A stretch of DNA of 57,784 nt, counting the filler, from Dugesia japonica (Eukaryota): the NCBI GenBank assembly GCA_001938525.1. It is 6 parts of 6 records of this genome, joined end to end, with 100 filler letters (N's around TTAATTAATTAA, not from the genome) between each part and the next. Parts side by side here need not be neighbours in the genome. Positions count along the whole stretch, not along the records: positions 1 to 10,027 come from MQRL01624652.1; 5 more parts are not named here. One strand, given 5' to 3'. The notes beneath the pieces were generated by a model. The model worked only from the letters and a program-made list of their open reading frames with translations, ran no database searches and was not told the origin of the DNA. The position numbers were made by a program, and so were the translations under genes. Positions 1 through 56,348 of this stretch are shown here, piece by piece (within the stretch, counting starts at the first letter, position 1; each line of letters begins with the position of its first letter).

Positions 1-657
1 TTCATTTTTATATTTTCACAAATTATTGAATTTTATTCTCAAGTTATTGATTATTATTATTGATTATTATTATTGATTATTATTATTATTGAGTATTATT
101 ATTATTGATTATTATTATTGAGTATTATTATTTTTGGTTATTATTATTATTCATTATTATTATTGATTATTATTATTTTTGATTATTATTATTATTGATT
201 ATTATTATTGATTATTATTATTGATTATTATTATTGAGTATTATTATTGAGTATTATTATTATTGATTATTATTATTATTATTGAGTATTATTATTGATT
301 ATTATTATTGAGTATTATTATTATTGATTATTATTATTGATTATTATTATTGAGTATTATTATTATTGGTTATTATTATTATTGATTATTATTATTCATT
401 ATTATTATTGAGTATTATTATTATTGATTATTATTATTATTGAATATTATTATTGATTATTATTATTGAGTATTATTATTTTTGGTTATTATTATTATTG
501 ATTATTATTATTTTTGATTATTATTATTATTGATTATTATTATTGATTATTATTATTGAGTATTATTATTATTGGTTATTATTATTATTATTCATTATTA
601 TTATTCATTATCATTATTCATTATTATTATTTTTGATTATTATTAGCCATTATTATT
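1..657. repeat. Complex (ATT)n microsatellite with GATT/GAGT interruptions
   Basis: Continuous ATT runs punctuated by TGATT/TGAGT/TTCATT units. Confidence 0.95.
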
Positions 658-1193
658 GCAATGTTAAAGTAACTATGTAAAATTTTGTTCCATAAGAAGT
701 ATGAATTGATTTTCCGATTCCTTTTGAATTTAAAAACTTATTGCAAAATATAAAATATTGGAATAGAATTTAGAAAATTTCAAATGTAATTACAAAAATA
801 AATACAAAATGTGGTTCTCACGTAGAACCGCAAAATTTTCGTTTGAACTTGAACGTTTTAAAAATCAAATATATTTATTTAAATTACAGAGTTATTAGTT
901 TAACTAATTGTATCTTGTTTCCTGACTAGTTTTTTCAAAATTGAGATTTTTTTTGAAATTTAGCTGAAGGAAGACGAAGTAAGAGATACGTTAAAGATTA
1001 TCGGTATTCCAACTGGAATTATACCGAAATTATCGGAATTATATACAAGTGTTCAGGCACATTTTGCAAGTTTAAATTCAGANNNNNNNNNNNNNNNNNN
1101 NNNNNNNNNNNNNNNNNNNNNNNNNNNNNNNNACTAATTGTATCTTGTTTCCTGACTAGTTTTTTCAAAATTGAGATTTTTTTTGAAATTTAG

Positions 1194-1571
1194 CTGAAAG
1201 AAGACGAAGTAAGAGATACGTTAAAGATTATCGGTATCCCAACTGGAATTATACCGAAATTATCGGAATTATATACAAGTGTTCAGGCACATTTTGCAAG
1301 TTTAAATTCAGAAAAACTTATTAATGAAAGAAGTTACAAAGATTTAAAATGGCGAATTGATATTGAGTTATCATCGAAATTCGTTGAAAACAATCCGAAA
1401 CCTGTAATTTATTTGCATTTGATTACGAAAAACCCGGTTTCTGGAGAAGACGAAACGAAAATATTTCAAACTGATCCTTGCAATATTCGTCATTTAATTA
1501 GTGAACTCGAAATGGCACAAAAGGAATTAGACTCGGTTTATTGTCAACGCGTTGAGAAATACATTAAATAG
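1194..1571 (+). CDS. COMMD2: Terminal exon of COMM domain-containing protein 2
   Basis: After acceptor ttag, open frame LKEDEVRDTL...YKDLKWRIDIELSSK...IFQTDPCNIRHLISELEMA...YCQRVEKYIK*. It matches the COMM domain (W-R-x-D) and the COMMD2 motifs QTDP..HL...LE.A and C.RV...IK. Not in the ORF track because it has no ATG. Confidence 0.85.
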   Translation: MKEDEVRDTLKIIGIPTGIIPKLSELYTSVQAHFASLNSEKLINERSYKDLKWRIDIELSSKFVENNPKPVIYLHLITKNPVSGEDETKIFQTDPCNIRHLISELEMAQKELDSVYCQRVEKYIK

Positions 1572-2818
1572 CCTTCTGATATTTGATTTGTTATAAAAAA
1601 TTTTATTAATAACATTTGTTTACTTTCTTTTCTCTATATAATCAATATATAATCAATAATTTCTTTTGTTTATTGTGAAAATTACATTTTGGGTATTTAT
1701 TCACTTTTAATATATTTTTAACCATTGATTTCTGAATGATAAAATTAAATATTTTCAAAATTACGGAAATAAACTAAGGCTTACATCAAAAAAGTTTCAA
1801 AAAAATATTTTTTCTTTAAATTTTTATTAAAGTTACAAAAAAAAATTCAAAAAAGCTTTAATCAATCACAACTCCTAAAGAAGATGAAATCGATAATTTT
1901 GGAAAACCAAAATATCGATTTTTCAATTTGAAGGTAAATATTAATTTTGTTTAAATTAAATCTTTTTATTCTTATTTTGATTGGATAATATTATTAAAAT
2001 TTATATTGATGTCTGATATAATTTTTTTGATCAAAATTTCTTCGAGTTTTTTTCTATAGAGTGGTCAGAAAAATTAGCAACTCAAAAAATTTTGAAAAAA
2101 TTCATTATAAGGATTTACCATTCCCGATTAAATACTTGACTAAATCTTCCAAAAATTACCAAAACTGAGGAAAAATTTGACCACATTCCACCTCACCGAA
2201 TAAATTCCCAACTAAACACAAAGGAAAAATTAAACACCACTTTCAATTTATTTTTAAAAATTTATCCCCTTTTTTAATTTCTTTTAAAAAACGTATCCCC
2301 TCTTTTTCTAACGTCGACGGGGGCTTATTATGGATAAAATCAAGAGGGGATACGCGCGACTATCTACCTACTACTTAAATTATATTAAACGTTTCTATCT
2401 ATCTGCTATCTATCTTTCTCTGCTGAGGTTTCTACCAAACACCGTTTCTGCTGGAAATGGATGAAGATTTCAATATGGGGACGGATCTAATACCCAAGTT
2501 GTTGTCAGATTATGCGCTGGATTTTAAGTCCCTACGTTTTAAATCCACTGAAAAGGAAACGACCAAAACATACAACGAAAATAATTGTGGAGAATATGAA
2601 CAACGTGGAGAACAAAAAGAGAGTAGAAAGAATGCAGATCAATATGCTACAGGCAAGCAAAGCGAGAAAGAGTAAATCGTTATGGCACCCACCATCTTCT
2701 GACAAAGATAATGAAACCATTAAGCAAGTATTTGAATTGCAAACGATAATGGAAGAAATAAATAATAAAGAGGAAAATAATTTGTTATTGGATGTCGCCG
2801 AAGTGCTAATGGCGTTCA

Positions 2819-4549
2819 ATGAAATTAAACCAAGTTTCGATAGGTTACATCAGACTTTTGCTGGAGAAATTGATCCTAGATCGAGGTAAACAGTTGATGG
2901 AATTGGAGATTAAGTCATTTAAAGTAAAGATTTATGTGGAACACCAAGTAACCCGTCATGTACGAATACATAAAACGGATCGATGGTGCGACATTGCAGA
3001 AAGAGTCAGATGCATGATAAATATGGTTGGAAAAAGCCTATATTTCAGTCATGATAGAATAGAAGATACTTCGATAGAGCCTGCGTTGTTAAATGGATTA
3101 GGGAGTAACTCAAAGATTGGTCTATATCTTAGAAGCAAACCGGATCATAACCAGGTTGGTGGAGGAGCTGAGAATCTCCAAAAGAAAGTTAAACAGATTT
3201 GGAAGTGGGTGAGAGACAATATGGAGTTGGCATGTCACCAAAAAGTATTGAAAGTGATAAACAAGGAACAACAGCAGCAAATAGAGAGTATGGAAGCAAT
3301 CCATAAAAGGAATGCGGACAATATNNNNGAAAAAACCAGGAAAGAAAGTGAGTTGGATTACGAAATACAAAATTTAGTGAACATTATACAGAGAACTACA
3401 AAGAATTTTCAAGAAATCACAAGTGCATCTCATTATCTTTTAGCACAGCAAATTGGGGACGAAAGACGAGCGGATTTGGAAAAAGAATTTTATGGTTTTC
3501 AAAAACAAGGAGAGGCAATGGATATGATTATTACGCTTTTACTGTCGTCGTGGAGAATGGTAACAGAAGATGAAATTATTACTAGACCGAGGATCACATT
3601 ACCATCTCCAATAGAATTTCCAGAAAATCGATAGTTATTGTTGTGTGAGTATTGTGGAAAATTTGGACACCAAGAAAGTAGGTGTTGGTTGTTAAAGATA
3701 TGTTTCAAATGTCAAGCAAAAGGACACGTCTAGAAGAATTGTCTGGTAAGAAATAGACCAAGCATTATAAGTGAAAATCAACAGGTAAACAGATGTAACT
3801 CTAGAGTGAATGAATGTCGACGAATACATGAGGTTCTAAATAATAGAAGCGTTGAGATCAATGGAGCAGGTCACTATTAAGAAGCTACTAGGAGGAATAA
3901 TTTATGCAACCGTTATCCAGAAAGAAAACCGCAAAATCTATGCCCAGTAACAATTCCAGGTGATGATATTCTGATGAAAAAGATGAGGATAAATGGCATA
4001 GAAATCAAATGCATGCTAGATACCGGGGCGAGCAGATCGAAAATCGATTTTAAAACAATAAGTGAAGAAGATGTAATAAGAATTCGTAAAGAAAAAACTC
4101 AGATGCTTACAGTAACAGGAAAGTCAATCGACGTAATCGGGGAACTGGATTGTCGGATATCCGATGGTGACTTCAAGTGTATGTATTCAATGAAAGTAAT
4201 CGAGAATTCAATGTTTGAATGTGTTATTGGATTAGACCTGTTAAGAACAATGTTTCCAGATGGTCAACTGGATATGAATAGATTCAAAAAAGAGGTTAGT
4301 AATGACTCTGATGAAATTGAAGGTAGAAATGAATCCTATACAAAAGAAAACGAAACAAGGAAAGAATATCAAGAAAAGGTGATTGGGAGAAAGCAAGAAC
4401 AAATTGATCACAAAACAAATCATGTTACGAACCAGGGTTTTGTGTTTAAACGGCGGCAATCAAGGCTAAGAGAATGGAAAAGTTTGAGTTGCGCCAGCTG
4501 CGTGAAGGAAAAGGCTGAAGTAGATCTGCCTGTTAGAAACGGTGGGTAA
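2819..4549 (+). pseudogene. Gag-protease polyprotein (Ubl domain, coiled coil, two CCHC knuckles, retropepsin)
   Basis: One frame with premature stops at 3632, 3731 and 3878. CEYCGKFGHQESRC (3644-3685), CFKCQAKGHV*KNC (3701-3742), MLDTGASRS (D at 4019) and CVIGLDLL. Probably begins further upstream (2457/2512) via frameshifts. Confidence 0.85.
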
Positions 4550-6689
4550 AATTTTGTGTTTGGAGGGTACAATTGATATGCGTAGTCCATTAAAAGATAC
4601 GGTAAATGTGTTGCATGAGGCAAAGACACGGATGAAGTTAATACAAGCCGTACATGTCAAAGGTCAATCATTGTCACCAACAGAACAAGAAGGATGGTGG
4701 AGTGATATTATGCCTCAGGTGCAAGGCATCGACGAGGACGTCGATTTTTCGAAAGAGGGGAGTGATTATGGATCACTACTATTTGAAGCACGCCGGAGGA
4801 GAATGCATCAACAACTAACTAATAAAAAGCAAATAATTAAAGAAATACAAGGAGACAATAGAGTATTTACTGAATTAGCAAAAAGAACGTTATCGGACAG
4901 GTCTGAACAAAGTTTGGAAGATATGTGGGCAGATCTGTGTCAGGCGGGACTTGAAGTGAAAACGAACCATGTGGAATACAAAGCAAAGCAAGTCAACAAG
5001 ATAGCGGAAGCGGTACAATTTATAAAAGAACACAACGGGCATGGAGACCCCAAAGTGGAACAATTAAAAGGGTCCGTACAGCTAGTACAAACATTGGGAA
5101 AACTAGTAGAAGAGTTGGAGGCAGAGAGAAATGAAATTCAACAAGATCAGGAAATTCCAAGGAAGGCGTGTCAGATATCAAATAAATGGAACAAGCGGAT
5201 GTATGCAGTGTTATTATTAATTGTATTTAAAGTGGTAAATAGCGAGGAGTGCTATAATTATGAAGATGTAAACAATGAACATAAAATACACATAACACGT
5301 TATAATACTGAAATACAAACGATATCTAGAAAACGGTTAAAAAGAGTAACGTCAACTAATGATTGCAGTGAAAGTATAAATAGCAAAATTGCGTATAAAT
5401 GGATGGAACCCACCATCTCAGTCGAGGACCAGTCAATTGGGGCAGTGATACACAGAGAATTTTGGAGTTTATCGATTGAGGTCAAAGGCAACATACTACA
5501 GGAATTAAGGCTCGCACACTATAACAAGGAAACAGGAGATGTATATCGAGACGAAAATTGGCAACTTATTTGCAAAGGGAAGACAAAATTGTTTAGAGTA
5601 TATTGGGTTTTCAGTATATATTATCGTACCGAATTTCTGATCCAGTATATAACGCAAGACGGTAAAAATCCAGTATGGTTAACTAACCGAGATGATTGTC
5701 CGAGAAGCAAGCATTATACGTGTTACAGTTGTGAAAAATCGGATCGAATAAGATAATTAGAGTACGATGGGAATGACGAACCCAGCAAATTAAAAGACAA
5801 AGAGAAACATTACAATTTGGGGGATGGAGTGAAATTGGCATGCAAATAAATAACTTGAAAACGGAGAACATGGTGGACACGTTTACAATTACCATAAAAC
5901 GAGGTAATAAACAAAAGGCACGATTTGGATATTACAAAGAATTACGAGAATGGACAAACGGAGAGTTTCTACTGGAATTTGAATGGTGGAAAAGTCAACA
6001 AGAGTTAGTAATAAAAATGAAAAAAAGTTTGGAGTATGGGTCAAGTTAGAATATATTGTAGTTTTTGGATTACCGCTGAGCAAAAATTCGTTAAAATCTA
6101 ATATTACCGTGACAACAGCAAAATCGACTTCATTAAAAACAACGACGAAAACGTATCCAAATACGACGACAATAGCGACAACACCAATAATGAAGAGTAG
6201 TACGAGAGATACAAGTGCGCGAAGAAAAGTGATAAATATTACGATGACTAGGTATGTGACGGCGACAATAGAAAGCGAACAAAAGAGAATGCCATCAAAT
6301 GTGTTAAATAAACAACAGGAGGATTTTATTGAAAAATTGATGAAAGAGTTGGTAAGGACCGGTTCACGAAGGACATTTCCGGCAAAAGCTAAGTTGAGGC
6401 ACGAGGCATCAACGATGCAAAGCAAAATGGAAAATGAAAGGAATTGGTCAGCAGGACTCATTGGTGAAGTAGCAGGGGTCATTACGATGATCATGATGAC
6501 GATTATAACAATATTAATTTGTAAAGCAAAACGAGGGCAGTATCCGAGACTGCGTTTAGAACCNNNNNNNNNNNNNNNNNNNNNNNNNNNNNNNNNNNNN
6601 NNNNNNNNNNNNNTATAACAATATTAATTTGTAAAGCAAAACGAGGGCAGTATCCGAGACTGCGTTTAGAACCGGAATTAAGAGAGTAG
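4542..6689 (+). pseudogene. Helical domain followed by env-like type I glycoprotein (frameshifted)
   Basis: Internal signal-like MYAVLLLIVFKVVNS (5199), RKRLKR furin site (5328-5345), Cys/Trp-containing ectodomain, Thr-rich stalk, TM GVITMIMMTIITILIC followed by KAKR. Spans ORFs 4542, 5840 and 5983. Confidence 0.6.
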
Positions 6690-7077
6690 ACAGAAAAATA
6701 TTTACACCAGCCAAGAGAGTTCGTGCAGTTGAGAGTTTCTGAGGGAGGAACTGAGTCGTTGTGGAGTTATTGAGGAGATCAGTGGAAGCAAAGTTGTAAA
6801 TAAATTACCTGAAATGTAACAGTAAGGTACACAATTTAGTTTTTGAGTAGCTCGAATTGTAAAGTAGAGCATAGCTGAGTAAATTAAAATTAAAATATGG
6901 AGTAATTTGTAAACTTGTTTTGGAATGGATCACTGTAGTATCTTCATAGTAGTATTTATTTAGTAAAATGGAACAGAAACAAATGACAATGAATGGACGA
7001 CTAACAGTAAATGTGGATCNNNNNNNNNNNNNNNNNNNNNNNNNNNNNNNNNNNNNNNNNNNNNNNNNNTTAGTAAA

Positions 7078-7593
7078 ATGGAACAGAAACAAATGACAAT
7101 GAATGGACGACTAACAGTAAATGTGGATCTAGACGACGTCGACAGAACGATTACGGAGGAGCCGGCGCAAACTTATATCCAACTGCTTAATCAGCTTTTA
7201 AATCCTTATTTTACAATGGAAAACTTGTGGGACGAACATTGCAGAAGCGTAATGAGAAATTCAGATGTACTAAATGAACAATTACAACAGACCCAACAAT
7301 TAAATGCAACCCTTGTGGAGAATCAAAATTTTTATGTGATGCAGGTACACCGATTGAATGAAATAGTGGAAATTCAGAGATAACAGATTACCGAGAATCA
7401 GAATTTTTACCTACAAACTTTGAGTGGAACTAACAAAATAATAGAGGATCTGAGACACCAAGTGGAGGAGTTACAAGCCTATAATGCAGAACTTATTCTA
7501 TCCCAAATTAACCGATTACCGAGCGTATCCGCCATCCTGAATACTATCGAGACGAGCGAGACGATGTGGTATCGAGAAGAGAGTAACGTATGA
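7078..7593 (+). pseudogene. Accessory coiled-coil ORF with duplicated ENQNFY motif
   Basis: ORF 7078-7383 reads on past a TAA into QITENQNFYLQTL...; heptad-rich. Confidence 0.45.
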
Positions 7594-7777
7594 CAACGGA
7601 TGCCAAGATGTAGAGTATTGTAAAGTATGTGTTAAATAGTAACTGTATTACTATGCAAAATAAATGTATTCCAAAAATCAAAAACAGTAAAAGTAACAGT
7701 AAAATATCGTATAAGTAGAGTGCCAATTATAGTTATATAATCAGTGCGTAATCAGAATAATTCCATTTTGTATATAG

Positions 7778-8027
7778 AACGTTTGAGGATTTTCAAAAAT
7801 TGTGGAGGTGTGTGGTGAAAGAATTTGAGGAGACTGTAGCATTAATATGTAAAGCAAAGACAGAGAAAAGGATGAGGTGAGGAGAATGCGAAGTTGAAAC
7901 AGTTTCAGTATTAAATTTACCTTGTGAGCATGTAGCAGTTTGTCAGAAATATCACCAGAGAAACGAGCTCAAACGATGCGCAATGTGTAAATGGTCGATA
8001 GAGTAGTGGTATGTGGTGTATCTATGA
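7778..8027 (+). pseudogene. IAP/MDM2-type C-terminal RING finger exon
   Basis: *GEC...LNLPCEHVAVCQKY...LKRCAMC...WYVVYL*. First Cys codon reads TGA; preceded by an AG acceptor. Confidence 0.7.
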
Positions 8028-8233
8028 GTGAGATACCCGGTAAACCTGTAAATAAAGTTACAATCAAGATACAGTACAGTAAAAGTAACTAAGGAAACAA
8101 TATTTAAACAATTTGTAAATATAAGTCTCAACTAAAAATTTGGTTAAATAGTAAATTCAATGATTTTTAACTCCTAATGTCTGAATTATGCAAATAAAGT
8201 ATATCGTGTATTACTTATATTTCAATTAAGAAA

Positions 8234-9127
8234 ATGGCATCTCGAAGTTCAAGTAGTATGGCTCAACAGAGAGGAGCAATCAGACGATACTGTGAAAATA
8301 ATGCTCGACCCCATTCAGCCAATGAACCTGTAAAATTCAGTGCGATCAAGGAGAAAACGAACCTCAATGCGCCCAGAGGCGAAATAAAGTCGTTTGAATT
8401 GAGAGGAGTAGAATCAAAAAATTACCTGACTGAAGGGGAATCACGAAGAAGGCGGGGTGATGTACGAATTCAAAGAGAAAACAAGCAAATACACGATAGT
8501 GTAAGAGAAAGATTCTTTTGGAAAAACTTATGCGCTGAAAGAGAGGAGGAGATCATAAAGTTGCAACAAGAGCTAAATAACATTCGCAAGCGACCAATAA
8601 AGCAAATCCACGAATTAGAAACTTAAATAAATTGGCAACAGAAAAAAATTAAAATGCTAGAGAAAACTATTGAACGTAATAATGAAGGCCGTATTACAAA
8701 TCAACAAGTACAACAATAGAGACTGGATCAGATACTACAAAACAATGAGCGGCTGATGAGAGAAAGCTTAATATGGAAATTGGAGAAAGAACAGAACAAT
8801 ATAGACATACAACATCTAGAAAATGCTGTAAAACATCTTCATGACGAAAATGCGCGTCTCAAGGAAGTTACAATCCGAGTAGTGATTCCCCCTCGACAAG
8901 TCAATTTGACGAAAGTGGAACAAACATTTTACACTTATAAAACAAATGGGCGACCTGTAGCCCCACAGATTAGTTTACTTAATCAACAGGCCATCCAGAA
9001 GAGACAAACACCACGATCCAATTCCCAATCCAGTAGATCCAGTACATCTTATCTTACGACTTCGACAAATGAGCAGTCGCAATGGCCATATTCAGCATCC
9101 GAGGAGGATCTGTTCTGGGGCCGATAA
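8234..9127 (+). pseudogene. Accessory coiled-coil protein (about 297 codons, two internal stops)
   Basis: ORFs 8234 and 8756 are in the same frame, and the sequence between them reads as coiled coil. Confidence 0.5.
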
Positions 9128-10027
9128 ATTCTTCGTGTCGAGCAGTTCTATGCTGCGTGTAAACTATGTAAATATTTTTCGTAATGAGTAAAACTATTCA
9201 TATTTGTGTCTCTGACAATTTCTATACCCAAATGTTCTCTGACAATTCAATGCTGTCCATTTGGTCGTCTCATGTGTATTCTGCCGTCTATGTTGTCAAT
9301 CTATTCCAAATCAATTCAGCTATCTACGAGCCGAAGGTGTCCTCCGAATCCGGTATGTCGATCAAGAGAAGATCTAAACAAGTTGACTTTTTGATTGTTT
9401 TATGATCCTATGGAGATGTGAATTCGATGTTGTTAATTATATTAAAGTGATCCGGTTATTTATAATGACAATTAAGATTTAAATAGTGAACATAAAATTG
9501 ATTCAGTGGTGAAATTTGATTAACATCTGCATGTGTATTTATGATATTTGATCGAAATAATGTATTTTCAATTGTTTTTGTTATTTTCTTCTTATTTCTT
9601 ATCTGTGTTTATTTTATGACATATCAGAATCTTGCTTGAGGGAACTTTCTAACTAGAGTGTGAATGGAAATCGAGCTTCCATAGACCTAGTTTTCGTTGA
9701 AAAGAGTATTATGAAATTGAGAAGAATTGACGACAACATAAACAAAGAATTTAATGAGAAATTCCGGGACAGGATTTTTTCGAGGCCCCCAGTAATTTGT
9801 TGGGAGGGAACACCAAAATGGTGAAATAATAGAAGAGGTAAAGATGGGCAATGGTTGCCGAAAATAGAAAAGAATCGACACAAAATTGATGGTCTAGACC
9901 AGAAAATTGAGTATTATGTACAATAAAATCATTATTATTATTATTATGGTCACTATTATTATGTAGTTATTATTATTATAATTATTTTGGATTATGCTTA
10001 GAAAATATCGAAAAATGAAAATTGGGC

Positions 10028-11665: not shown

Positions 11666-12568
11666 TCACAAAGATTCACTATCATCGAAAACAAAATTAA
11701 GAAGTTTTGACTCAAATTCCACTAGACTTTGAGTGTTCCTTATTCTTTGCAAAATGATCAATAAGTACCCACCGCTTACACAAATAATTAAAGATGTGAA
11801 GCTAAAAATAATTAAAAATGCTGTTTTCAAAAAGTGATCATTGAAATTTATATAATCATTATGAACTTCAAAATTGAAAATCTCATCATTGATAATTGTA
11901 TAATTAAACAATGTATCCCGACATTTTATTTTCTTTAATAGCATTGTTCTTTCTAAAAGAATTAATCCCATATGATTTTTTTCACTATTTGGATAATAAA
12001 AATGGGTTTTATTCAAATTATCGTCCATAATTTCTAAAATCGTCCGACCACCTTTATTATCATAAAGTCGACAACCCACCAGAATTATATCACCTTCTTT
12101 CAAAAACCGTTGTTTGAATTTCCTTTGAGAAGTATGAATCCATTCTATTTCCATATCTCTTAAAGTAGCTTTTTGAATTGGGATTTTAATGGTTTTCATT
12201 GGAGATTTGAAAAATAAATAAATAATTTCCCAATTATCACGAGTTTCATTTTCATTTAACAATAAAATTATCAAAATTTTCGGTTGATCTGGATATTGAA
12301 TTATTTTAAATGTGTGTTTGATTTCGTTTTTTAATGATCTATCGAGAAAATTTAAATTCGGATTTATCGATAAAATCCGATTTTCATTTTGATAAATTTC
12401 TAATTCACAATTCTCTGTCCATTTATTCAGTAATGATCTAATTGAAATTGTTGTGTAAATATGTTGAACTACAAGTTCAGGATAAAACTTTACTTCAATG
12501 TTAGCATGGAGAATTCTCCATATTGAAATAAATACAATATTAATTAATAATTGAATTTTCTTTTCCAT
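11666..12568 (-). CDS. Intronless 300-aa type I membrane protein, possibly two Ig-like domains
   Basis: Uninterrupted 903-nt ORF in very AT-rich DNA; N-terminal signal peptide, beta-rich ectodomain with LKEGDIILVGC...KIKC, several N-x-S/T sites, one TM, short tail. Confidence 0.7.
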   Translation of the reverse strand: MEKKIQLLINIVFISIWRILHANIEVKFYPELVVQHIYTTISIRSLLNKWTENCELEIYQNENRILSINPNLNFLDRSLKNEIKHTFKIIQYPDQPKILIILLLNENETRDNWEIIYLFFKSPMKTIKIPIQKATLRDMEIEWIHTSQRKFKQRFLKEGDIILVGCRLYDNKGGRTILEIMDDNLNKTHFYYPNSEKNHMGLILLERTMLLKKIKCRDTLFNYTIINDEIFNFEVHNDYINFNDHFLKTAFLIIFSFTSLIICVSGGYLLIILQRIRNTQSLVEFESKLLNFVFDDSESL

Positions 12569-13414
12569 ATACTAACTAATCGATATAATTTCATAAATGA
12601 AATAGAAATAGAAATTAAGAAAAACATACTATTGCACTGTGACGCTCCCTCCTCCGAAGAGAAGTATTGAACTTATGGAGTTCTATAGTAGTTCTTCGGA
12701 TTTGTAATTTTTTGTACCAGTTGTACGGACATTTTTATGACTGTCCATTTTAACTCTTTACCGCTACTACTGATCTTTCATTTGATTTTATTTTTCTTTC
12801 TTTCACTTCATTTTTTTCTTATCATCTAATGTTTCTGTTTCTTTCTTTATAGTCTTTACTTTTATTATATGAGTCTTCTTTCCTTTCTAGTCATCCTTTG
12901 GCACTGATGCTCGCTTAACAGTTTCCATATTTGTAATTATATTTCTTTCTTATTTCTCTCATTATTGTTTTGTTTAATATGTTTATTTATATCATTCTTT
13001 CCCTTGCTATATACTTACATTTCAGACATTTTTCACTTCCAATTTTTGTTCTAACTTTCTCCTGCCACTTCTCTTGTTTTTTTATCTATGTTTCTTCGAT
13101 TTCTTAGTATTTCTTTCTTTTATGTAGTATTATTTATATTTCTTTCGATTCCTTTCTTTACTATTGATTTGATATAGTTCTTATCTTTCTCGACATTTTC
13201 TTTCTACGTTTGCTTTTGTCTCCCGCTGATTTTGATTCCTACTTTGCATTTAAACACTTCAACTTCTTTCATTATGTTTATATCTTCCAATTTTCTTTAA
13301 AGGTTATGCCTTTTAGTTGTGATTAAACACTTTGTGCTTAGAAGTTTGTTTCTTTCATGTAATTCTTTTACCTCCTGCCTGTTTCGTCTTTTTGTCCCTA
13401 GAAATTTCCATATA

Positions 13415-14570: not shown

Positions 14571-15659
14571 GTTGTTTTTTATTTATTTGGCGTGGTGGTG
14601 TGGTTAATGGTGTGGTTAAACTAACTACAATTTAAAATAAAAAAATAAAATCACGAAAATAATTTATTTATAATATTTTACTCAAAACTACCACCTTTTT
14701 TAATTTATTTTTTAAAAATAAACCCCACTTTTTAAAAACCTTTTGCCAGCGTCGACGGAGAACGGGCTTGATAAGGCTTTTTCAAGTAGGATTATGCGTT
14801 ACTATACAAGAAGTTAACCCAATACAATAAGTTAATTAATTTTTATAGATAATAATATCGAGAATTACGTGCAAAAAGATTTATTTTTTACTAAAGTTTA
14901 TTAAGAAAGAAAATTATAAACAAGATTTTGTCAATCATATATTAAATCATAGCTGATATATTCTAAAATATTATTTACAACCGTTATAAAAATATACTGT
15001 CATCAATTTTTGTCATCAATTTTATTCATTAATTTGGTAAATAAATGGTAAATAACTAATGATATAGTTTTCGCGATTGTTACTAATGAAGGTTATGCGA
15101 TGTTTCTGCTTATTTCCTTATTCGCCTTAAAATTACTGCTCCTGTAAATATTGACATTGGCTCCTTTTTTTATCTGCTTTTGACAGACTTAATTATTTTA
15201 TTTCATAATTTTCCCGGGTCTAATATCTTGTCTGTCATATTTTGCGTCTTTCATTTTATTAATTTTGGTTAACTTTCTAATTACTGTTTGTTATTTCTAA
15301 ATAATTTTTTTCTAAATAATTATTTCTAGATTTGCGAATGCTTGACTTCTCACAATCTTAGAAAGCTGATTGTGGTAGCCGGCTAAATCATCCAAATGTG
15401 GGGGGAAAGGTTAAACTACTAAAATAGTATATCTATATCAACACCCAAATAAAGAACAAAAACAAAATTTCTTATTTATGTTAGATTACTTGTGGGGTGA
15501 AGGTTTNAAAAATGAATTCTAGATCATTAATATTAATTGGGATCCAGGTAAAATTATATTTATAATTAATTACATAATATTAGGTAATGCAGGAAGTAAT
15601 GGTGGGTTTTGAAATGAAACTTTAAACTTTCATTACTAAGTCCATTACAAAAGTTTTAT

Positions 15660-19590: not shown

Positions 19591-19878
19591 TTTTATAATT
19601 CAGATATTTTTATTAAACTTCTATTAGAAGATTAATTTTATTTTATGTGTAATAATAATTCATGTACAAAATTTATTTTATTTTTCATCTGTATCTGTAT
19701 GTTGGGCTGGAACACCAAAATTAGTCGAGNAACTAAAGAAATACAGAAGGGTGAAAATATATAAAATAAAGAAGAATTTGCACCAAAATCGATGATCTGG
19801 ACCAAAAATATTATTAAGAAAAGCATTATTATTATTATTATGGTTATTATTATTATGTAGTTATCATTATTATAATTA

Positions 19879-54400: not shown

Positions 54401-54479
54401 TAAACCACTGTATAATTACTAATAACTATGATTGATTAAAATATGAAATGAGATAATAATCCTTAACAGATCTTATTCA

Positions 54480-56348
54480 CTTCAAAATAAAGCAACTTGT
54501 TCATAAAATTCTTCTTAATGAAACCATAGAAAAAGAACAATCCACACCTAAAATTCAAAAAGCTTCACCTTTGATATTAAACTTTGTTAAGCGAGACAGT
54601 TTGGAAGATATAGTATCGAAGTTGGCTGCAGTTGATAATATTTCCATACGTGCTATAACGAATTCTGCATTTATTCGTGAATCAATTTCTAGTCGGGGTT
54701 ATTTTTTACCAAACTGCGAAACCAGTGTTATGAAATTGATACATCGTAATTTTGAATTAAAGAAAGACGAGGTGATTAAAATCATTGAACAACGTAAAAT
54801 ACTTGGCAATAAATTTAGTATCACCAGTGATGAATTGACAAGCTTAAGGAGACGTAGATACCTGAACATAAATATCCATGGAGAAAACGACGTATGCGTA
54901 AATCTTGTGCTTGTTCGAATTCCAGGATTTTGTAATGCAAATTATATGGTGAATAAAGTGAAAAATCAGTTGCTTAAATTTAAAATTAATTTTGAAAGTG
55001 ATATTGTATGCACTATTCATGATGGGGCTCCAATGATGTTAAAGTATAGAAGAACTTGCCCAGCTGAAATGATTATATATTTAAACCACAGTATACACTT
55101 AGGNNNNNNNNNNNNNNNNNNNNNNNNNNNNNNNNNNNNNNNNNNNNNNNNNNNNNNNNNNNNNNNNNNNNNNNNNNNNNNAGATGATTTTCAAGATTCT
55201 GAGGATGATCCCGGTATCGACAATTATGATGACGAAAATGTAACTATTTTTGAACAGTTAAAGCTGGTGAGGAAAATTGTGTGCTTTTTTAGATATTCTC
55301 CAGTACACAACAGCATCCTGCAAAATCATGTCAGAAATGAATTCGATCGTGAGTATGAACTACTCTTAGATATAAAGATTCGATGGAACTCGATTGCGCC
55401 CATGATAGAAAGATTTTTGAAGTTGAAAACGCAAATTTTACAAGGTTTAACAGATTTAAAATGCTCATTATTTGATGGAAAAGGTTGACTTTGAGCTATT
55501 GAAAAATCTCAATCATTCTCTACAGACTATAAAACTAACGGTGGAAGCATTAAGTCGAAAAGACGCAAATATTTTTGGTGTTGAGGACGTTTTATCTTTT
55601 TTGAAAAACAAAATGAAAGCAATCAAAAAGCAGAAATAAGTCGCGATTGTTATAAGTCAATTGAAAATCGAATTAAATTGAGAAAAAATTACATTAATGC
55701 TTTAATAAAATGTCTTGTTGATCTAACTTCAACAAATGGTCCAACAAAATCTACTCTTAGTTTTGCTACAGCTCTTATGAAGAGACTTTTTCCTGTTGAG
55801 ACTATGCGGTTCTCTGAGGCTGGACAAGAAATTATGTGTGAAGAATCCGCAGTCATAGTTGAATCAGATATAGAATTGGCTGAAGAACTGAATTCAGATA
55901 TTTCAAAAGCGTGCAACGTTAAGTAGAAATATCAAATGATATCATCACTTTAAAGCAAGAATTCAACAGCTACAAGAAAACTTCTATNAGAACACAAAAT
56001 CTTGAATTGCATTATATGGCATTGAAAACAGCGAAGTCGACTTCAACAGATTCGGAGCGAACTTTTTCGGTTTCTGGAATGTTCTGCACACAGATCAGAT
56101 CTCGTCTCTCATGCGCATCGCTTAATGCATTATTTTTTCTAAAATTTTATTATTTAAATGAAAAAATGCCGAAAATTTAATTTTATCTCTTTTAAATTTT
56201 ATTTATAAGAAATAAAAGTAATTTTTGTGAAGTTCAATATTCAACAATTTATTTTATTTTTATTCAGTTATCCGGTATACGCCGGATAATTTCAAAACGT
56301 CTATCCGATAACCGCGGTTTCAGAAAATCCGAATATTTGGAAATCCTA
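54480..56348 (+). mobile_element. hAT transposon with pseudogenised transposase
   Basis: FSITSDELTS, DGAPMM, HSIHL, LDIKIRWNS, hATC TSTDSERTFS...IRSRLS; CCGG-rich subterminal region ending ...AATCCTA. Confidence 0.9.

What the first reader, a model, noticed from the sequence alone, without database searches (positions are those of the whole stretch)
2233..9990. Retrovirus-like element with gag-protease-env and accessory genes but no RT, RNase H or integrase
Seen: one strand carries Gag-like ORF (Ubl, coiled coil, two CCHC), retropepsin, a helical domain, an env-like glycoprotein and at least four accessory ORFs including an IAP-type RING. No YxDD RT, RNase H or DDE integrase motif follows the protease, where Ty3/gypsy pol normally continues, and that interval has no assembly gap. 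Inference: either a non-autonomous particle/envelope-encoding satellite of an invertebrate ERV, or a giant element with pol elsewhere. I recall giant 'Burro' LTR elements described from planarians, so that comparison comes first. This copy is decayed.
Basis: partly seen in the sequence, partly recalled or inferred. Interest (0 to 1): 0.85.

Follow-up and report, generated by a model that had tools for sequence, protein, structure and literature searches.

The report
Retroelement family missing its copying enzymes
A decayed copy of a repeated element in what is likely an invertebrate genome carries retrovirus-type RNA-binding and protease genes, a predicted membrane protein and a RING-finger gene, but no detectable reverse transcriptase or integrase, so it likely spread by borrowing those enzymes from a related, far more abundant element.

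Summary
Partly confirmed. Two CCHC knuckles, a retropepsin and a degenerate IAP-type RING are real. A six-frame Pfam scan finds no RT, RNase H or integrase, while a decayed gypsy control in the window scores for RT and RNase H.

Contigs from two studies, about 95% and 82% identical to this copy, cross the protease-to-ORF2 junction with no insert. The loss of pol is therefore shared across copies. Depth suggests roughly 10-25 copies of the 5' half, while 6.3-7.8 kb is shared with a family about 100 times more abundant.

Not supported: ubiquitin-like domain, capsid, and env homology (only a predicted signal peptide, Thr-rich stalk and transmembrane helix, in three frames). No LTR pair lies on the 10-kb scaffold. 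The Burro domain order is not met, and the host was not identified.

Best reading: a dead copy of a non-autonomous gag-protease LTR-retroelement subfamily, like plant TR-GAG elements, unusual in carrying a membrane-protein cassette and accessory ORFs. Mobilisation in trans is inferred, not shown.

The parts
2130..2420 (.). 5' non-coding region with short tandem units; possible remnant of a terminal repeat (inferred; no partner on the scaffold)
   Evidence: 31-nt tandem at 2241-2307; similar stretch near 14650-14810; very high laid depth in bin 2162-2442
2491..2889 (+). ORF0, 132 codons, no family; in a different frame from the Gag-like ORF here, possibly one ORF in other copies (inferred)
   Evidence: 0 Pfam hits; contigs of other copies run across it into the Gag-like ORF (records 1 and 7)
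2897..3631 (+). Gag-like N-terminal part: 90-aa domain (Ubl by eye only) and long predicted helices; no capsid signature found
3644..3742 (+). two CCHC zinc knuckles (nucleocapsid-like); the second carries a stop in this copy
3881..4549 (+). retropepsin-type aspartic protease, same frame as the Gag-like ORF, followed by a charged tail
4578..5198 (+). ORF2 predicted helical domain, unknown family; part of it is shared with far more abundant relatives
   Evidence: depth in bin 4691-4971
5199..6100 (+). predicted signal peptide (5199-5240) and beta-rich predicted ectodomain, broken by a stop at 5754 and frame changes near 5850-6050; low-copy cassette
   Evidence: hydropathy; no homologue; joints 5048/5050 to 6293/6294 in other copies
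6100..6690 (+). Thr/Ser-rich stalk (6103-6222, 20 of 40 residues S/T), four N-glycosylation sequons, predicted transmembrane helix (6466-6522) and short tail
   Evidence: the tail crosses the duplicated 50-N gap
7078..7593 (+). accessory ORF, 171 codons, Gln/Asn-rich, one internal stop; in the highest-copy stretch
7776..8027 (+). degenerate IAP-type C3HC4 RING, no BIR detected, two internal stops
8234..9127 (+). accessory ORF, 297 codons, charged, with a Ser-rich end; two internal stops
6692..9600 (+). four AT-rich spacers between or after the 3' ORFs, sharing short motifs
   Evidence: 14-nt match at 7684 and 8076 (0 of 200 shuffles); all 5 plus-strand TGTAHATA sites of 2101-10027 lie in or at the edge of spacers (post hoc)

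Best explanation
This is a decayed copy of a low-copy repeat family that has a zinc-knuckle Gag-like gene and a protease but no detectable RT, RNase H or integrase, and it is likely a non-autonomous Ty3/gypsy-type LTR retroelement subfamily copied by the enzymes of a related autonomous element. Shown: the domains, the missing pol block in this copy, the same pol-free junction in at least two diverged lineages of copies, and the sharing of 6.3-7.8 kb with a much more abundant family. Inferred: an ancestor lost or replaced RT-RH-IN as a block and gained or kept a membrane-protein cassette. Its RNA would be packaged in particles that also hold a helper's RT and integrase, with its own knuckle protein and protease able to bind RNA and process polyproteins. 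The 3' ORFs would be made from separate or spliced RNAs, and the RING would act as an IAP-like ubiquitin ligase. This copy can no longer code for these proteins.
For: CCHC-CCHC-retropepsin in one frame is the Gag-protease junction of LTR retroelements (established knowledge). No pol in 6 of 6 frames, with a working RT/RNase H control. X1 record 2 spans 4235-4767 (28 other letters, 2 gaps, depth 83.9) and X4 record 9 spans 4213-4783 (99 other letters, 8 gaps); the runs are from two studies. Six contigs in each run carry a difference at place 4552, where total depth (156 and 80) matches the protease bins (141-165 and 81-95). Other contigs link knuckle to protease (3733-4201), helical domain to signal peptide (4951-5250), transmembrane helix to spacer, and RING to spacer. 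A second organism label (X8) holds about 96%-identical pieces. Depth profiles of X1 and X4 agree (log r 0.98). GAG/PROT-only non-autonomous families are a known class: 28 of 115 sugar-beet families (PMC13570524 passages).
Against: No LTR pair on the scaffold, and no PBS or target-site duplication was identified. No capsid signature. No helper was identified; the abundant family's sequence could not be fetched. No laid contig spans the element, and one search showed only 15 of 151 joints, 24 of 2450 loose ends and 24 of 20556 pieces, so a rare pol-bearing copy could be hidden. The tool warns that summed contig depth is no copy number. One oligo-dT RNA run (about 25% read) put almost no reads on the coding body. 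No relative was found in any protein or contig collection, so the lineage is unplaced.
Confidence: 0.58

Rival explanations
1. Part of a giant autonomous element with rearranged gene order, whose pol lies beyond the right end of this copy or was lost by terminal truncation.
For: The scaffold ends at 10027 and no right terminus is seen. Giant planarian elements carry RING/BIR, ubiquitin-like and env cargo (second-hand).
Against: RT normally follows the protease and is cut out by it; here the protease frame ends at 4547. A host COMM-domain gene closes the left side at 1571. After 9127 come about 500 nt of non-coding DNA and a different repeat.
Confidence: 0.15
2. An old internal-deletion or recombination derivative that multiplied passively (segmental duplication or capture by another transposon) and never used a helper.
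For: Copy number looks modest and depth is mosaic, from about 10-fold to about 2000-fold single-contig depth. No termini found.
Against: Lineages about 18% apart keep the same junction, and one 545-nt contig has about six times single-contig depth, suggesting recent near-identical copies. Long open frames persist.
Confidence: 0.15
3. Chance pile-up or scaffolding chimera of fragments from several repeat families.
For: Three contigs are joined at two gaps inside a very high-copy stretch; depth classes differ about 100-fold.
Against: The low-to-high depth change near 6.1-6.4 kb lies inside one contig. Other copies read across both gaps (joints 6553-6695, 6563-6696, 6996-7119). All ORFs are on one strand with shared spacer motifs. 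The RING and last ORF are not linked to gag-protease by any single laid contig, so this rival stays open for the 3' third.
Confidence: 0.08
4. A host-domesticated gag-protease gene family (DDI1-like or PEG10-like logic) rather than a mobile element.
For: The best PDB matches of the protease are DDI1-type (E 0.002).
Against: This copy is riddled with stops; 33 listed difference places fall 8/12/13 over codon positions 1/2/3, as in neutral decay; almost no RNA in the one run laid.
Confidence: 0.04

Closest known systems
TR-GAG / GAG-PROT-only non-autonomous LTR retrotransposons (plants)
   Same: Multi-copy, keep gag and protease, lack RT, RNase H and integrase (PMC13570524, passages seen).
   Different: Here the host is likely an animal, and the element also carries a predicted type I membrane protein and three 3' accessory ORFs including a RING. 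Terminal repeats are not shown.
Burro / GYPSM1 giant gypsy-like elements of planarians
   Same: Large cargo with coiled coil, RING and a membrane or env-type ORF; tandem repeats; AT-rich host (PMC6431247 section 7 read in full; B-IAP RING+BIR known only second-hand from PMC13465017 passages).
   Different: Burro keeps PR-RT-RH-IN in a polyprotein of about 4900 aa, with a retrotrans_gag motif and env between gag and protease. Here the knuckles sit directly before the protease, the membrane ORF follows it, and no BIR or pol was found. No sequence link was shown.
Env-bearing Ty3/gypsy elements (errantiviruses) and complex retroviruses (recalled)
   Same: gag, protease, then a membrane ORF and accessory ORFs on one strand.
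   Different: No pol; the membrane ORF has no detectable fusion-protein homology and follows a 200-aa helical domain in the same frame.

Membership tests
Ty3/gypsy LTR retrotransposon (autonomous) | CCHC nucleocapsid followed by retropepsin | tested here: met
Ty3/gypsy LTR retrotransposon (autonomous) | RT-RNase H-integrase after the protease | tested here: not met
   0 hits in 6 of 6 frames, control positive for RT and RNase H; 338 nt to the next ORF
Ty3/gypsy LTR retrotransposon (autonomous) | capsid domain in Gag | tested here: inconclusive
   no Pfam hit; model pLDDT 37.8, only coiled-coil matches below Z 8
Ty3/gypsy LTR retrotransposon (autonomous) | paired LTRs, PBS, PPT, target-site duplication | tested here: inconclusive
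   no long direct repeat on the scaffold, but the scaffold ends at 10027; the only purine run of 13 or more is inside an ORF; PBS and target-site duplication not tested by a call
TR-GAG-like non-autonomous LTR element | gag/protease kept, RT-RH-IN absent | tested here: met
TR-GAG-like non-autonomous LTR element | structure shared by several copies | tested here: met
   bridging contigs about 95% and 82% identical in two studies
TR-GAG-like non-autonomous LTR element | terminal repeats and an autonomous partner | not testable with these tools
   no genome held; laid contigs cannot be fetched
Burro / GYPSM1 | single giant ORF with PR-RT-RH-IN | tested here: not met
   against the description
Burro / GYPSM1 | env homology between gag and protease | tested here: not met
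   only about 90 codons lie between the second knuckle and the protease active-site motif, with no hydrophobic segment
Burro / GYPSM1 | BIR plus RING accessory gene | tested here: inconclusive
   IAP-type RING present; no BIR in the six-frame scan of a decayed copy
Burro / GYPSM1 | sequence similarity to Burro; planarian host | not testable with these tools
   no Burro sequence available; two published BURRO1 primers do not match the window, which says little
Viral envelope fusion glycoprotein | signal peptide, ectodomain and C-terminal transmembrane helix | tested here: met
   hydropathy prediction only; pieces lie in three frames, so one protein is inferred
Viral envelope fusion glycoprotein | homology or fold match to a fusion protein | tested here: inconclusive
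   no hit in Pfam, PDB or Atlas; 0 of 226 Foldseek matches at E<=0.001 from a pLDDT-38 model

The most novel reading that the evidence does not exclude
A helper-dependent satellite retroelement of an animal genome that dropped its replication enzymes but swapped in its own surface glycoprotein and kept an IAP-type ubiquitin ligase. It would trade cell-entry and anti-apoptotic functions for the RT and integrase of a thousand-copy partner that lacks the ectodomain.
Probability: 0.2. Interest if true: 0.78.

Novelty: new variant of a known kind. Interest (0 to 1): 0.5.

Why it matters
Non-autonomous LTR elements usually shed cargo. A family that lost pol yet kept several kilobases of membrane-protein and accessory genes across lineages about 18% apart suggests that the cargo, not the enzymes, was what selection kept. 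Pipelines that classify by RT or integrase would miss such families. If the partner turns out to be a Burro-like giant element, it would make division of labour between retroelements testable.

Tried and rejected
Protein homologue searches at near lengths found none for ORF2 (0 of 2241 candidates), gag-protease (0 of 2897) and the 7078 ORF (0 of 40); longer or shorter forms were not searched. The profile-scale search of protein representatives gave no result, so distant relatives remain untested. ESM Atlas: no usable hit for ORF2 or its ectodomain; the Gag-like ORF has no Atlas result. No related loci in viral contigs or metagenome contigs, no tblastn hit in phages, and 0 of 7 proteins found by exact look-up. 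Both single-sequence structure models had pLDDT of about 38; fold searches gave only generic helical bundles. A weak caspase-7 match of the 90-aa domain (E 0.27) and DUF6908 (E 0.0015, below cut-off) were set aside as chance. The ectodomain does not resemble the membrane-protein ORF at 11666-12571 (E 1.5). No tRNA or Rfam match. No RNA holder on record was listed. The one YxDD-like string is in a stop-rich frame. Earlier findings: no look-alikes by sequence, place or the first word search. Literature: 9 searches listed no description of a pol-less gag-protease-glycoprotein family in an invertebrate. The primary Burro papers (Grohme 2018; Lee 2026) are not held and were not seen; they, their supplements and Repbase may already describe it. 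A supplementary PDF of PMC8532177 could not be read.
Full report
Setting. The window is a string of scaffolds of about 10 kb joined by N44-ttaattaattaa-N44 spacers; the finding lies on the first (1-10027) and runs to its end. No genome is held. A COMM-domain host gene ends at 1571 (Pfam E 1.4e-12). The segment 2400-9130 is 36.7% GC against 26.9% for the other scaffolds, with strong A and G skew on the + strand. The host is likely an invertebrate animal (inference from the COMM gene, the composition and the mariner and gypsy neighbours); it was not identified, and a planarian host is neither shown nor excluded.

What the sequence shows. One frame (2810-4549) holds a 90-aa domain, long predicted helices, two CCHC knuckles (3644-3742) and a retropepsin (LDTGA 4016, IGLDL 4226), with stops at 3632, 3731 and 3878. 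The knuckles match EIAV nucleocapsid (E 9.6e-6); the protease passes the Pfam Asp_protease cut-off. ORF2 starts 338 nt after the protease motif, in another frame: about 200 aa predicted helical, then a signal-peptide-like segment at 5199 and a beta-rich region. After frame changes come a stalk with 20 of 40 residues Ser/Thr, four sequons and a transmembrane helix at 6466-6522. Three 3' ORFs follow (7078-7593, 7776-8027, 8234-9127). The middle one is a degenerate RING whose top three PDB hits are cIAP1/cIAP2; no BIR was seen. With ORF0 (2491-2889) that makes four extra ORFs.

Absence of pol. Pfam on all six frames of 2101-10027, stops read as X, returned only protease families and one sub-threshold DUF. 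The decayed gypsy at 24.9-30.0 kb, treated alike, gave RVT_1 at 7e-16 and RT_RNaseH_2 at 9e-22. That control had no integrase hit, so integrase sensitivity is uncontrolled, but there is no room for one after the protease. There is no N from 3329 to 6563.

Claims not supported. The ubiquitin-like domain has no Pfam, PDB or model support. No capsid signature was found; the Gag model (pLDDT 37.8) gave only coiled-coil matches below Z 8. The env label rests on predicted topology: no homologue in the protein collection, Atlas, PDB or Pfam, and 0 of 226 Foldseek matches at E<=0.001 from a pLDDT-38 model. These tests are inconclusive, not negative.

Other copies. Eleven of 24 listed runs, from 6 studies and 2 organism labels, hold part of 3400-6500 (best share 0.33). 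I laid 4 of them on 1600-10027 at 80% likeness. X1 record 2 covers 4235-4767 with 28 other letters and 2 gaps at depth 83.9, and X4 record 9 covers 4213-4783 with 99 other letters and 8 gaps. Both are other copies, from two studies, and neither has an insert where pol would be. Depth is level from the protease across the junction (X1 165, 141, 134; X4 95, 81, 87). So the pol-free junction is shared by lineages about 5% and 18% away from this copy. Because those contigs carry gaps, it is open whether protease and ORF2 share a frame in other copies. Further contigs link knuckle to protease (3733-4201), helical domain to signal peptide (4951-5250), transmembrane helix to spacer, and RING to spacer. 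Joints across both 50-N gaps show the duplicated 60-mers there are assembly overlaps. No record spans the element, and only 15 of 151 joints, 24 of 2450 loose ends and 24 of 20556 pieces were displayed.

Mosaic depth. Dividing by a hand-picked single-contig depth (medians 13.5 and 10.2 from 12 values per run), the 5' half and ectodomain sit at about 8-28, the RING at about 40-55, 8.1-9.2 kb at about 35-365, bin 4691-4971 at 175-300 and 6.4-7.8 kb at about 800-2200. The two runs agree (log r 0.98). The tool warns that this is no copy number; I use it only as a relative guide. Joints from 5048/5050 to 6293/6294, in one contig per run each and with unknown sequence between, show copies in which the helical domain reaches the transmembrane part without this ectodomain. 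The simplest reading is a small subfamily of a very large family, marked by its own gag-protease and an ectodomain cassette. It is also possible that the abundant relatives are merely under 80% alike in those parts.

Activity. One oligo-dT run (about 25% read) laid 161 reads, 159 only partly, mostly on the low-complexity ends; depth over 2724-6657 was zero in 13 of 14 bins. Thirty-three of the 40 listed difference places fall in ORFs (7 left out as outside the frames counted) and split 8/12/13 over codon positions, as expected for neutral decay of this copy (a biased sample of 1065 rows).

Spacers. Spacers 2 and 3 share a 14-nt match (0 of 200 shuffles reach it). All five plus-strand TGTAHATA sites lie in or at the edge of spacers; four counted inside, against 0.48 expected (0 of 500). 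The motifs and zones were chosen after seeing them. The motif resembles the Pumilio element (recalled), which would fit separate 3' UTRs for the accessory ORFs; this is a lead only.

Mechanism. Most likely (0.58) a non-autonomous Ty3/gypsy-type subfamily mobilised in trans by a related element's RT and integrase. Rivals: pol elsewhere in a giant element (0.15), passive amplification of a deletion derivative (0.15), pile-up or chimera (0.08), domestication (0.04). LTRs, primer site and helper were not seen, so mobilisation is inferred.

Comparison. It works like plant TR-GAG elements: 28 of 115 non-autonomous sugar-beet families keep only GAG/PROT (PMC13570524, passages). It fails membership of autonomous Ty3/gypsy (no pol) and of Burro as described in PMC6431247 (section 7 read), though it shares the theme of RING cargo (PMC13465017, passages). 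PMC8532177 (passages and part 1 of one supplement), PMC11410931 and PMC10899757 (passages) added nothing structural. Nine searches listed no matching description, but the primary Burro papers were not available. An earlier scan note on a Burro window in another genome was not tested here.

Verdict. A real, multi-copy, pol-less gag-protease element with unusual cargo; a new variant of a known kind; interest 0.5. The satellite-with-its-own-envelope reading has probability of about 0.2.

Noticed in passing
window:903-1571: 3' part of a COMM-domain (COMMD) host gene; 903-1082 is duplicated at 1133-1312 across a 50-N gap, an assembly overlap.
   Followed up: partly
window:9650-9990 and 19700-19878: Two scaffolds end in the same repeat (73% over 192 nt) running into an ATT-rich tail, with a decayed reading frame of no known family.
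   Followed up: partly
window:2227-2390 and 14650-14810: Related non-coding stretch with a CGTCGACG palindrome at both places; very high laid depth and partial RNA reads suggest an abundant dispersed repeat or LTR end.
   Followed up: partly
window:11666-12571 (-): Intact 301-codon ORF with a hydrophobic N-terminus and a C-terminal hydrophobic segment, no Pfam family, not in the protein collection by exact look-up.
   Followed up: partly
window:24991-28315: Decayed canonical gypsy element with CCHC, RT and RNase H; used as the positive control.
   Followed up: yes
window:20297-20500: Fragment that by eye resembles an adenain-type cysteine protease of Polinton/Maverick elements (recalled); no Pfam hit.
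   Followed up: partly
window:44955-45500 and 54460-55926: Mariner transposase (Pfam Transposase_1, E 2e-19) and a probable hAT-type transposase fragment (by eye; no supporting Pfam hit).
   Followed up: partly
window:10631-10986 and 33756-34110: A second repeat family present on two scaffolds at 79-86% identity.
   Followed up: no
window:1-650: AT-rich satellite of alternating 13- and 16-nt units.
   Followed up: no
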